Shown: positions 11,591 to 14,778 of the stretch, piece by piece | Layout: every line of letters starts with the position of its first letter | Position numbering within the stretch: position 1 is the first letter of the stretch | DNA from: Azolla caroliniana | Taxonomy: Eukaryota; Plantae; Polypodiophyta | Length of the DNA: 64,000 nt | Direction of reading: 5' to 3' | Assembly (NCBI GenBank): GCA_043228905.1 | Contig: JBHGNT010000005.1 | Coordinates: 1,984,001-2,048,000 of the forward strand | Position numbers and translations under genes: made by a program | Notes under the pieces: generated by a model | What the model was told of the DNA's origin: nothing | The model's database searches: none | What the model saw: the letters and a program-made list of their open reading frames with translations, nothing else

Positions 11591-12045
11591 ATGGGGGGGG
11601 AAGGTGTCTGCAGGGGAACTTTGTCACCTTCAACAACTTGTAATAAAGTGCCATGGAATGATGCACCCAGGCCTCTGTGCAGGAGGCGGGCTGGCCGTCA
11701 TCCCAACCCTAAACCTAAAACCCTAACCCTAATTCTGAGAGACTATTGAAGATGCGGGCAGTAGCAAAAGAAGCTAAGGAAACAACCCACCTCTTTTGGA
11801 AAGAGTTCTTCGAGGATCCCTCACAATGGACCCAAAATAAGGTGAGTATTACACACGCTACGAATGCTGCACATGTATATACCCACATACAAATGCCACA
11901 AAGAGAAGAGAATAACAGAGTGAGTGTGTGTGTGTGAGAGAGAGAGACGCCATTCTTTTGACAGAAAATCACAAAGGCATCCTCGTGCCTCCATGGCCTC
12001 CAAAACCCTTGTTGGGTCTACCAAGAGCTAAGCAGAAGAAGATCG
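11591..12045 (+). pseudogene. Degenerate 5' region of PPR gene 1: putative targeting peptide, OSB-type PDF motif and a probable intron at 11842-11964
   Basis: ATG 11591 opens MGGEGVCRGTLSPSTTCNKVPWNDAPRPLCRRRAGRHPNPKP. After a +1 shift in the A-run at 11717-11720 it continues NPNPNSERLLKMRAVAKEAKETTHLFWKEFFEDPSQWTQNK. The junction AAG|GTGAGT...TTCTTTTGACAG| then joins in frame to KITKASSCLHGLQNPCWVYQELSRRRS and the ATG at 12046. Confidence 0.65.
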
Positions 12046-14778
12046 ATGTCTAAAGATGGAGTCCTCAGTTTGGTGAAGCAAAAAGATGAAAAAACCTTTG
12101 ACAAGGATGAAAACCCCTATGATGCCAAAATGTATGCAAAAGGTGACAAGGCGTATGAGAATCTATATGAGTACAAAGAGGCAATTGCATATGTTGCCTT
12201 ACTCAAGACTTGTGCCAAGAAGAAGGATCTGCGTGAAGGCACTAGTTTGCACGTTGATGTTGTAAAAAGAGGTTTTCTCCAGAAGAATCCTTATGTAGGA
12301 AGTGCATTGATCCACATGTATGTGAAATGTGGTTATTTGGACAAAGCACAACAAGTGCTTGATGAACTTTTTTTCCGAGATGTAGTCTCATGGTCAACCC
12401 TTATTTCTGGATATGCCCAACAAGGTCAAGGTGAAGAAGCCCTGAATTGCTTTGAAAGAATGCAAAATGAAGGTCTCTCCCCTGATTCCATCACCTTCGT
12501 TTGCATCTTGAAAGCATGCGGGAGTATAGGAGCAATTAATAAAGGAAAGCAAATTCACAAAGAGATAGTTGATAAAGGTTTGTTGGGAAAAGATGCTGTT
12601 TTGGGTACTGCTTTGGTGAACATGTATGCCAAATGTGGTGAACTAGGAAAAGCTGAAGAAGTGTTCAAAGAGCTTCCTTGCCGGAGTGTAGTCTCCTGGA
12701 ATGCCCTCATTTCAGGATACATTGAACAAGGTCAAAGTAAACATGCATTGGGTTGTTTTGAACAAATGGAAAGTAATTGCTTTTCTCCGAATGCAGTCAC
12801 TTTCACTTGCATATTGAAGGCATGTGGAAGCATAGGGGATGTTGAGAAAGGCAAAGTTATACATGACAAGATTGTTAATAAAGGATTGCTAGACAAGCAT
12901 ATCATGCTTGGCAATGCTTTGGTGGACATGTATGCCAAATGTGGCATGCTAGAAAAAGCTCAACAAGTACACGATGAGCTTCCTGGTCGCAATGTGGTCT
13001 CTTGGAATGCCTTAATTGCAGGATATATCCATCATGGAGAGGGCGAAAATGCGTTAAATTGTTTCGAACGGATGCAAAATGATGGCCTCTTGCCTGATGT
13101 TATTACATTCTCTTGCATATTGAAGGCATGTGGCATTTTGAAGGCAGTCAATAAGGGAGAACAAATTCATGATGAGATCTTATCAAAGGCTTTGCTGAAA
13201 AAAGATATTGTACTTGGCAATGGACTTGTGGATATGTATGCCAAATGTGGAAACCTTTCAAAAGCACACGAGGTACTTAACGGACTTCATGTTCGTGATG
13301 TAGTTTCTTGGTCTTCACTCATTGCAGGCTACGCAGAGCAAGGACGCTGTAAAGATGCATTGGATTGTTTTGAGCAAATGCAAAATGATGGGTTTTCTCC
13401 CAATGCAGTCACATTGACTTGCATCTTGAAGGCTTGTGGAAGCACCGGAGCAATTGATAAGGGCAGACAAATTCACGATGAGATTGCTACTAATGGATTG
13501 CTGGGGAAGCATCTAGTGCTTGATAATGCTCTGGTGGACATGTATGCCAAATGTGGCCAAATAGAAAAAGCACAGGAAATATTTGTCACTCTGCCTGTTC
13601 GAGATATAGTCTCATGGAATGCACTAATTACTGGATATGTTCAACAAGGTCAAGATGTGGAAGCCTTGAATTGTTTCACCCAAATGCAACATGACAACAT
13701 ATTTCCAGATGTGATAACTTACATTAACATGCTCAAGGCATGTGGAAGCACAAAGGAGATTAACATGGGGAGAGAACTTCATAGTGAGATAGTAAGCAAG
13801 GGTTTTTTGAAGAAAGATATCTCTCTAGGTACCGCATTGGTGGATATGTATGCGAAATGTGGTGAGCTAACTAAAGCCCATGAAGTGTTTGATGAGCTTC
13901 CTTTTAGAAATGTAGTTTCATGGAATGCATTGATTTCCGGATATGCTCAACATGAGCAGGGTGAAAGAGCACTTCACTGTTTTGAGCAAATGCAACATGA
14001 CTTCCGATCTCCAGATGCAATCACCTTCCTCAGTGTTTTGAAGGCTTGTGGGAGCAAAGGAGCAGTTGATAAAGGCATCCAAATCCACGATGAAATCCTG
14101 AATACAGGATTGCTGAAGAATGATGTTGATCTTGGCAATGCTTTAATTGATATGTATGCCAAATGTGGTGAACTTGAAAAAGCACAAAAAGTTTTTGATG
14201 AACTTCCTGTTCGAGATGTAGTCTCTTGGAACACATTGATATCAGGTTATGGCCAGGAAGGAGAAGGTGAGAAGGCTTTGTTCTATTTTGAAAAGATGCA
14301 ACATGATGGCTTCTCTCCTGATGCTGTGACTCTTCTTTGTGTATTGAGTGCATGTAGCCATTCGGGCATGGTGGAGGAGGGTAGAAAATGTTTTGCGGAT
14401 ATCCCCAAAAAACATGGTTTCATGCCGGACATTCAGCATGAGACATGTATGGTTGATCTTTTCAGTAGAGTAGGGCTCTTTGACAAAGCTATCGAAGTTA
14501 TCAAGAAGATGGCATCTATTGACTATCCACTCTGGTGTTGTGTACTGGATGCATGCCAAAGATGGGGTAATGTAAAACTTGGAAGGTTAGCCTTTGAAGA
14601 AGCAATCAAATTAGATAGTAATAATGCTGCTGCTTATTTTAGTATGGCAAGCATCTATGCAGCTGCTGGGCTGCAAGAGGAAGTGGCGAAGATTGAGGCC
14701 ATGAGAATGAAAAACATTGTTTGCAATACTGAGTTGTTCCTCTGTTGCACAACCACCAATAATGTGTGGGAAAGCTAA
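12046..14778 (+). CDS. PLS-class pentatricopeptide repeat protein, E subgroup, no DYW domain (PPR gene 1)
   Basis: 910-aa ORF with seven P motifs (DVVSWNALISGY-type) in ~102-aa P-L-S triplets (LKACG, LVDMYAKCG). These are followed by P2-L2-S2 (LSACSHSG, CMVDLF.R.G) and E1/E2 (WCCVLDACQRWGNVKLGRLAF...AYFSMASIYA). The true start is probably upstream. Confidence 0.95.
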   Translation: MSKDGVLSLVKQKDEKTFDKDENPYDAKMYAKGDKAYENLYEYKEAIAYVALLKTCAKKKDLREGTSLHVDVVKRGFLQKNPYVGSALIHMYVKCGYLDKAQQVLDELFFRDVVSWSTLISGYAQQGQGEEALNCFERMQNEGLSPDSITFVCILKACGSIGAINKGKQIHKEIVDKGLLGKDAVLGTALVNMYAKCGELGKAEEVFKELPCRSVVSWNALISGYIEQGQSKHALGCFEQMESNCFSPNAVTFTCILKACGSIGDVEKGKVIHDKIVNKGLLDKHIMLGNALVDMYAKCGMLEKAQQVHDELPGRNVVSWNALIAGYIHHGEGENALNCFERMQNDGLLPDVITFSCILKACGILKAVNKGEQIHDEILSKALLKKDIVLGNGLVDMYAKCGNLSKAHEVLNGLHVRDVVSWSSLIAGYAEQGRCKDALDCFEQMQNDGFSPNAVTLTCILKACGSTGAIDKGRQIHDEIATNGLLGKHLVLDNALVDMYAKCGQIEKAQEIFVTLPVRDIVSWNALITGYVQQGQDVEALNCFTQMQHDNIFPDVITYINMLKACGSTKEINMGRELHSEIVSKGFLKKDISLGTALVDMYAKCGELTKAHEVFDELPFRNVVSWNALISGYAQHEQGERALHCFEQMQHDFRSPDAITFLSVLKACGSKGAVDKGIQIHDEILNTGLLKNDVDLGNALIDMYAKCGELEKAQKVFDELPVRDVVSWNTLISGYGQEGEGEKALFYFEKMQHDGFSPDAVTLLCVLSACSHSGMVEEGRKCFADIPKKHGFMPDIQHETCMVDLFSRVGLFDKAIEVIKKMASIDYPLWCCVLDACQRWGNVKLGRLAFEEAIKLDSNNAAAYFSMASIYAAAGLQEEVAKIEAMRMKNIVCNTELFLCCTTTNNVWES

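What the first reader, a model, noticed from the sequence alone, without database searches (positions are those of the whole stretch)
11591..14778. Cryptic OSB-type PDF ssDNA-binding motif fused N-terminally to a PLS-E PPR array
Seen: in the PPR frame upstream of the called ATG the sequence reads LFWKEFFEDPSQWTQNKVSITH...PFF*QKITKASSCLHGLQNPCWVYQEL. Known: the ~50-aa PDF motif of plant organellar ssDNA-binding (OSB) proteins has consensus LW..FF..P..WWDNR..K.NP..PDFKHK.T..ALWL....P.WV...L and mediates ssDNA binding, while PLS-E PPRs are sequence-specific organellar RNA-editing factors. Inference: the ancestral gene encoded targeting peptide + PDF + PLS array + E, an architecture I do not know to be functionally characterised. 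It could couple editing-site recognition to ssDNA, R-loops or the nucleoid, or use PDF as an extra nucleic-acid clamp.
Basis: partly seen in the sequence, partly recalled or inferred. Interest (0 to 1): 0.85.

Follow-up and report, generated by a model that had tools for sequence, protein, structure and literature searches.

The report
Eroded ssDNA-binding motif on fern PPR
This fern gene has an open, two-exon reading frame for a likely organelle RNA-editing guide protein (PPR) whose front end is a worn-down copy of a small single-stranded-DNA-binding motif; related fern and moss PPR proteins carry the motif whole, but here the splice site cuts out its core, so it is likely inactive in this copy.

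Summary
The motif is real and the fusion is real, but this copy is neither a cryptic pseudo-segment nor a working example. A profile of 16 intact motifs scores the site 43.3 bits; the best unrelated tile of 1962 scores 7.7. Both stops lie in a 123-nt GT-AG intron (11842-11964) that a relative's contig skips exactly, giving an open 967-aa PLS-E protein. A fern-like paralog (L002) has an intron at the same place with a complete motif. Here the acceptor sits 10 codons further on and exon 1 is three codons short, so the Pro-Asp-Phe core is lost (14 of 25 conserved residues kept). Intact PDF-PPR fusions occur in Pteridium, Adiantum, Sphagnum and Ceratodon. Atlas models link the motif to OSB clusters. 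Phage ERF annealing proteins carry a zinc-ribbon version. Ten paper searches found no description. The scan found this fusion before in peat moss (e1-7304186, e1-7304346). Verdict: a decayed member of an apparently undescribed moss/fern PPR subfamily; function of the motif untested.

The parts
11591..11749 (+). Upstream 52-codon ORF, out of frame with the PPR gene; Arg/Pro/Ser-rich, possibly a relic targeting peptide
   Evidence: first 42 aa: 8 K/R, 2 D/E. In run X6 a joint 11655->11719 with one letter between puts this frame in phase with the PPR frame; whether that organism keeps the ATG was not seen
11752..11841 (+). Coding exon 1 (30 codons): 13-codon lead and first half of the PDF motif (11791-11841), three codons shorter than in intact motifs
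   Evidence: (22.2 bits alone); covered by contigs of X2, X6, X14
11842..11964 (+). 123-nt phase-0 GT-AG intron with a (GT)n(GA)n run and both in-frame TGA stops (11935, 11959)
   Evidence: skipped by X2 contig, forked in X6; same donor position as the 140-nt intron of paralog L002
11935..11964 (+). Likely former exon sequence (10 codons, the Pro-Asp-Phe-Lys-His core) now inside the intron; the acceptor AG sits in the codon that is His in the paralog
   Evidence: gap-free codon match to L002 exon 2; scores above 275 of 276 acceptor-like control ends
11965..12033 (+). Second half of the PDF motif at the start of exon 2; conserved Leu-Trp replaced by Ser-Cys
   Evidence: (13.7 bits alone)
12178..14523 (+). 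PLS array: seven L-S-P triplets plus L2 and S2 (23 motifs)
   Evidence: 14 of 15 P/S motifs carry a canonical 5/last code pair (code as listed in PMC10482289)
14524..14778 (+). E1-E2 motifs, short tail and stop; no DYW domain
   Evidence: E_motif 28.3 bits, cut-off 27.3; no DYW among the 25 of 29 families shown; C-terminus read directly

Best explanation
This is an open two-exon fern gene for a 967-aa PLS-E PPR protein, likely an organellar RNA-editing site-recognition factor, whose N-terminal OSB-type PDF motif has lost its core and is likely vestigial. Shown: motif homology, intron position, the spliced form in a relative's contig, the loss of 13 residues, and intact PDF-PPR fusions in other ferns and mosses. 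Inferred history: the subfamily's ancestor had a PDF motif split by an intron after the conserved Lys. In this lineage the old acceptor was overrun by a GT/GA microsatellite, a new AG in the His codon ten codons downstream took over, the frame was kept, and the orphaned codons decayed. Inferred working: the 23 repeats read one organellar RNA and the E motifs recruit a DYW deaminase in trans (known for E-class factors of seed plants; untested in ferns). In intact members the motif likely adds sequence-independent affinity for single-stranded nucleic acid next to the repeat tract; its loss here suggests it is an optional aid and not part of catalysis.
For: Profile scores and nulls. Splice seen in X2 and forked in X6, two studies and two organisms. 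Paralog L002 with same-position intron and complete core, gap-free codon alignment across the shifted acceptor. 14 of 25 well-conserved motif columns kept (columns, compared by hand); the lost stretch includes the middle strand (87-90) of a low-confidence model of an intact motif. The same erosion is in a relative (P0008). Open 938-codon exon-2 frame with canonical code residues in 14 of 15 P/S motifs. Intact fusions: 8 of 15 hits carry Pfam PPR families and 4 more run into a first L motif. The window's nearest paralog (22250-24595) keeps at most a faint trace of the motif. PPR56 edits in E. coli with only 14 native residues before its first repeat (PMC10482289, passages).
Against: No read or contig from this very genome was laid: the best runs hold 0.21-0.28 of the words, and the clean splice rests on one contig. 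X6 also holds an unspliced form at depth 13.8 beside 20.7 and 21.3, so splicing may be inefficient. The 15 residues before the motif do not look like a targeting peptide, so organellar import is unproven. Both half-motifs persist with mostly silent or conservative changes in relatives (few sites, partial list), which could mean residual function. No true OSB came up among the 15 sequence hits; the OSB link rests on predicted-model matches of TM 0.46-0.54 over short stretches. No editing target was identified.
Confidence: 0.7

Rival explanations
1. The remnant still works: the two half-motifs form a reduced module, or the region now serves as the import signal or a protein-contact surface for the PPR protein.
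For: The splice shift kept the frame. 14 of 25 conserved columns remain, four Trp/Phe among them. Fern members generally have short leads of 7-39 residues without a typical presequence, so the motif region may take part in import.
Against: The signature Pro-Asp-Phe, the Arg, His and two Trp are lost. Among 9 fern proteins the intact motif is as conserved as the first repeat (0.60 vs 0.59 mean identity; lead 0.21, linker 0.28, though these were found by the motif), and this copy departs from it at its least variable columns. Several fern leads may be 5'-truncated models.
Confidence: 0.17
2. The gene is on its way to being a pseudogene: it lost its targeting peptide by a frameshift after ATG 11591, splices poorly, and makes little useful protein.
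For: ATG 11591 frame is basic and presequence-like but stops at 11749; in run X6 the two frames are in phase. An unspliced form is present in X6. Upstream ATGs lie at 11591, 11653, 11658 and 11661.
Against: 938 codons stay open with regular motifs and canonical code residues. Relatives' long contigs cover the coding region with no gaps between 11963 and about 13860 (table 8, part shown). The X2 and X14 contigs have no gap over 11701-11835, so the window's phase is not an assembly slip there.
Confidence: 0.12
3. The resemblance to the PDF motif is chance in a 5' region, and PFF*Q is only a translated polypyrimidine tract.
For: Pyrimidine tracts ending in CAG do translate to Phe/Pro then Gln. 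Pfam (copy here) gives no family for the segment (only DUF7759 at E 0.084).
Against: 43.3 vs 7.7 bits. phmmer over 1.84 billion proteins returned two Pteridium PDF-PPR proteins among 4 hits. The intron end beats 275 of 276 control ends and all 86 CAG-ending ones.
Confidence: 0.01

Closest known systems
PLS-class E-subgroup PPR RNA-editing factors of land plants
   Same: L-S-P triplets, P2-L2-S2, E1-E2, canonical code residues, no DYW.
   Different: An N-terminal PDF motif (eroded here, whole in relatives). The Physcomitrium PPR review lists RRM, LAGLIDADG, SMR, NYN, CBS and SAP as extra domains and has no 'PDF' (PMC9459714, passages).
OSB1-OSB4, organellar ssDNA-binding proteins (Zaegel et al. 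2006, not held; seen through PMC6963530, PMC4166229, PMC6451138, PMC13393729 passages)
   Same: The roughly 50-aa PDF motif, reported sufficient for ssDNA binding. Atlas models of an Adiantum two-motif N-terminus match OSB/SSB clusters.
   Different: OSBs have an OB-fold-like domain and C-terminal motifs; here there is no OB fold, the motif is N-terminal and is followed by a PPR tract. In this copy the signature residues are not encoded in the mRNA.
PDF-PPR(-E/-DYW) proteins of mosses and ferns (database entries, no paper found): Adiantum GOP47_0020297, Sphagnum CAM6030174.1, Ceratodon KC19_1G285400, Pteridium transcript ORFs
   Same: Same order of parts; same intron position in L002 and, by protein fragments, in Ceratodon (P0040, P0041).
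   Different: Those keep the whole core; some carry DYW or two motifs; the Sphagnum protein and one Ceratodon protein have 54-60-residue presequence-like leads.
Phage ERF-family ssDNA annealing proteins with a C-terminal C4 zinc ribbon
   Same: Share the Asp-Asn-Arg...Asn-Pro...Pro-Asp-Phe-Lys core (54 loci found by that pattern); 5 of 14 scanned have an ERF match, 4 above cut-off.
   Different: Most have four Cys around the core; 6 Cys-free ones match the plant motif more fully at 35-52 bits and the 4 of them scanned have no Pfam family. Relationship is distant and the direction of transfer was not tested.

Membership tests
PLS-E PPR editing factors | Alternating P, L, S repeats ending in P2-L2-S2 | tested here: met
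   23 motifs parsed; Pfam PPR families
PLS-E PPR editing factors | E1/E2 extension without DYW | tested here: met
   E_motif 28.3 bits over cut-off 27.3; C-terminus ends about 20 residues after E2
PLS-E PPR editing factors | Open, expressed reading frame | tested here: met
   967 aa after splicing; splice seen in a relative's contig, not in this genome's own RNA
PLS-E PPR editing factors | Organellar targeting peptide | tested here: inconclusive
   15-residue lead, not presequence-like; out-of-frame basic ORF upstream; no predictor available
PLS-E PPR editing factors | Specifies a C-to-U site in an organellar RNA | not testable with these tools
   no genome or organelle sequence held
OSB proteins | OB-fold-like (SSB) domain | tested here: not met
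   no SSB family on the exon-2 ORF among the 25 of 29 families shown, none on the 5' read-through; no room for one before the repeats
OSB proteins | Complete ~50-aa PDF motif with Pro-Asp-Phe signature | tested here: not met
   13 residues missing in the spliced product, 14 of 25 conserved columns kept
OSB proteins | Homology of the N-terminal motif to the OSB PDF motif | tested here: met
   window to intact fern/moss motifs by HMM; intact motif to OSB clusters by predicted structure and shared PF30937/PF30940 labels. No direct sequence alignment to an Arabidopsis OSB was possible
OSB proteins | ssDNA binding | not testable with these tools
   needs gel shift
PDF-PPR fusion subfamily (undescribed) | PDF motif, short linker, first L repeat, PLS tract in one frame, intron after the motif's conserved Lys | tested here: met
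   met in layout, motif eroded

The most novel reading that the evidence does not exclude
Mosses and ferns, which lack MORF helper proteins, have a sizeable class of editing factors that carry their own single-strand clamp: an OSB-type PDF motif, kin to a phage annealase zinc ribbon, that tethers the PPR protein to displaced ssDNA at transcription bubbles or R-loops, or holds the target RNA open, so that editing is coupled to the nucleoid. This gene is a natural knockout of that clamp made by splice-site sliding.
Probability: 0.3. Interest if true: 0.8.

Novelty: new variant of a known kind. Interest (0 to 1): 0.5.

Why it matters
PLS-class PPRs are taken to consist of targeting peptide, repeats and E/DYW only. 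A conserved nucleic-acid-binding module in front of the repeats in mosses and ferns would be a missed part of the editing machinery in the lineages that have no MORFs (PMC13386178, passage), and it is directly testable in Physcomitrium/Ceratodon, Ceratopteris or the E. coli editing system. This particular gene matters less as a working example than as a clear case of domain loss by acceptor sliding, which shows the module can be dispensed with. Gene callers that start at a downstream ATG hide the motif: 7 of the 15 listed Sphagnum cluster members begin after it.

Tried and rejected
Word-indexed homolog searches with the window's own 5' region found nothing useful (0 of 25 candidates; 2 of 76, both by the first repeat). 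P0005 is an Ig-repeat protein, a spurious hit. Pfam copy has no family for the motif; PHROGs none for P0006 or P0021. PDB sequence search: no hit under E 0.04. AlphaFold model of an intact motif is weak (mean pLDDT 56) and Foldseek found no match at E 0.001. Atlas feature searches gave no usable hit; the window's own 5' region was not searched there. Alignment-based scans of bacterial genomes (27 candidate stretches), viral contigs (22) and a tblastn of phage records found nothing; only the core pattern did, so the phage set is selected for that core. No genome is held, so family size in this species is unknown. No run on record as RNA was listed. The motif tree had no well-supported fork, so single versus repeated origin of the fusion is open. 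A two-sequence DNA alignment of gene 1 and gene 2 5' regions was uninformative. Zaegel 2006 is not held; Gutmann 2020 and Cheng 2016 (recalled) were not looked up. Three supplement files of PMC13393729 had no motif text or 'PPR'; figures and any other files were not seen.
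Full report
Observation. The gap in the quote hides about 33 codons and two TGA stops, at 11935 and 11959. A profile of 16 intact motifs from 15 fetched proteins scores the tile at 11701 at 43.3 bits; apart from two overlapping tiles, the best of 1962 six-frame tiles of the window scores 7.7. Two of the 15 proteins were found with the window's own sequence, so I repeated this with 5 motifs from the moss proteins and two unnamed motif-only proteins: 33.0 against 5.7 bits. 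The motif is real.

Gene structure. The sequence shows a donor at 11842 and an acceptor at 11964, 123 nt apart, phase 0, enclosing both stops. Splicing gives an open frame of 967 residues from ATG 11752. No run of this genome was found; 17 runs hold part of the stretch, at most 0.28 of its words, and none is on record as RNA. Six runs were laid. One contig of X2 covers 11701-11839 and 11963-12933 with no letters between, which is this splice given the shared AG. X6, from another study and organism, has contigs ending at 11841 and starting at 11963 and a third across 11812-11992; I read this as a fork of spliced and unspliced forms. X14 has contigs ending at 11835 and starting at 11964, which fits but does not show the joint. 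X1, X12 and X17 show nothing on it. So the gene is open, and 'PFF*Q' is intronic.

What happened to the motif. A scan of metagenome contigs returned 2 loci of 90 candidate stretches, two overlapping views of what looks like one fern-like paralog. In L002 the motif is complete and is split by a 140-nt GT-AG intron, also holding a (GT)n run, right after the conserved Lys. Its exon 2 aligns codon for codon, without gaps, to the window from 11935 on: Pro on Pro, Phe on Phe, and His on the CAG that is now the acceptor. As a control, the last 27 nt of the window's intron add more profile score than 275 of 276 acceptor-like ends taken from the window, and more than all 86 that end in CAG. Two Ceratodon genomic fragments (P0040, P0041) leave the motif at the same Lys and continue with Val and a stop, which suggests the same donor in mosses (protein-level inference). 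I conclude that the intron is ancestral, that its acceptor slid ten codons downstream in this lineage, and that exon 1 lost three codons. The spliced product lacks 13 residues and keeps 14 of the 25 columns conserved in at least 13 of 16 intact motifs (counted by hand). Lost are the Pro-Asp-Phe signature, Arg, His and two Trp. In a low-confidence model of an intact motif the missing part includes the middle of three short strands. A relative shows the same erosion (P0008).

The family. phmmer with the read-through 5' region over 1.84 billion representatives gave 4 hits: the window's own fragment, a spurious Ig-repeat protein and two Pteridium aquilinum ORFs with a whole motif running into a first L repeat. 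A profile of those two found 15 proteins among 89 candidates. Eight carry Pfam PPR families: Adiantum capillus-veneris (two, one with two motifs), A. nelumboides, Sphagnum balticum (cluster of 30), an unnamed Sphagnum-like protein, Ceratodon purpureus (two, one ending in DYW) and one Pteridium ORF. Four more Pteridium fragments run into a first L repeat, and three end at or near the motif. Among 9 fern proteins mean identity is 0.60 in the motif, 0.59 in the first repeat, 0.21 in the lead and 0.28 in the linker (36 pairs); they were selected by the motif, so this overstates constraint. In 6 Sphagnum orthologs the motif is 96-98% identical to P0017, like the repeats. A tree of the terminal repeats puts the window's gene with the fern sequences, apart from the mosses (98/95; 12 rows, P0010 left out for lack of an anchor). 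The species was not determined.

Is it the OSB motif? No OSB came up by sequence, and I could not align to an Arabidopsis OSB. The Atlas structure search with the two-motif N-terminus of P0010 returned, in its first six rows, three OSB/SSB clusters (one named OSB2-like; TM 0.46-0.54) and three PPR or DYW clusters of 63, 127 and 57 members whose aligned part carries the same label, PF30937. The domain is thus catalogued in a newer Pfam than the copy here, and fusions are visible in databases; I could not read those entries. Reviews describe the motif as 50 residues with a Pro-Asp-Phe signature, sufficient for ssDNA binding, with OSB1/2 preferring ssDNA to dsDNA or RNA (PMC6963530, PMC4166229, PMC6451138; passages). 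OSB1 is linked genetically to limiting R-loops (PMC8330923; passages). A pattern for the core hit 54 viral loci. Most are C4 zinc ribbons; six Cys-free ones score 35-52 bits. Of 14 scanned, 5 have an ERF ssDNA-annealing domain, 4 above cut-off. This fits a single-strand-binding role for exactly the segment lost in the window's gene, but the set was selected by that segment.

The PPR part. Seven L-S-P triplets, L2, S2, E1, E2, no DYW. 14 of 15 P/S motifs have canonical code pairs as listed in PMC10482289 (passage). The weak point is import. Only 15 residues precede the motif's first Trp; the basic ORF from ATG 11591 is out of frame and ends at 11749. Fern relatives have leads of 7-39 residues; the Sphagnum protein and one Ceratodon protein have 54-60-residue presequence-like leads.

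How it most likely works. Shown: layout, splice in a relative, loss of the core. From established knowledge: E-class PLS proteins pick an organellar editing site and borrow a DYW domain. Inferred: this protein does so with a vestigial motif (0.7); in intact members the motif is an optional single-strand clamp. Rivals: residual or import function of the remnant (0.17), incipient pseudogene (0.12), chance (0.01). That PPR56 edits with only 14 residues before its first repeat and that the neighbouring paralog has at most a trace of the motif (9.5 bits for the first half, the best site outside gene 1 among 1274 windows) both fit an optional role.

Novelty. Ten searches of the held library found no paper on PDF-PPR fusions. 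A 2026 survey of 182 OSBs required both OB and PDF domains and has no occurrence of 'PPR' (PMC13393729; abstract, passages, 3 supplement files). A 2026 survey of editing factors has no 'PDF' or 'OSB' (PMC13386178; passages), nor does the Physcomitrium PPR review have 'PDF'. Subscription papers, among them Zaegel 2006, were not seen. The scan has reported the fusion twice before from peat moss; I confirmed mosses and ferns, not liverworts or lycophytes. New here: the conserved intron, the splice-shift loss of the core, and the phage ERF link. Verdict: new variant of a known kind; interest 0.5, since the subfamily is apparently undescribed and testable but this copy is an eroded one.

Noticed in passing
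window 22250-24595 (-), upstream to about 24710: Second PLS-E PPR gene, nearest paralog of this one (57% in the terminal block), with a faint, stop-interrupted trace of both motif halves just upstream (first half 9.5 bits; not significant alone).
   Followed up: partly
window 17796-20345 (-): Third, more distant PLS PPR gene without any motif trace.
   Followed up: partly
window about 8130-9810 (+): Multi-exon CBS-domain gene with a plastid-type N-terminus just upstream of the PPR gene.
   Followed up: no
window 11424-11539 and 11705-11732: 56-nt tandem duplication and an AACCCTAA-type repeat in the 5' region; the region differs by large indels in run X6.
   Followed up: partly
runs X12 (record 2) and X6 (record 7) on window 11791-11829: Paralogous contigs match the first half-motif at DNA level; the X12 one continues with a Trp-His-Asp-Cys-Arg type motif, so further family members exist in these ferns.
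   Followed up: no
L020:133-741, L024:145-756, L028:1-735, L031:496-1218: Phage proteins of no known family ending in a Cys-free, plant-like PDF motif (35-52 bits); candidates for the source of the plant motif. Related zinc-ribbon forms sit at the C-terminus of ERF annealases (L003, L010, L018, L023).
   Followed up: partly
window 33879-36077 (-): 733-codon ORF, Ser/Pro/His-rich with an NP repeat, no Pfam family at 1e-5.
   Followed up: no
window about 54500-55950 (-) and 58000-62100 (+): Two copia-type retrotransposon coding regions in broken frames, judged by eye from the ORF list.
   Followed up: no
P0020, P0021: Short proteins that consist of a lead and one PDF motif only, with no OB fold or PPR seen; may be stand-alone PDF genes or first exons.
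   Followed up: no
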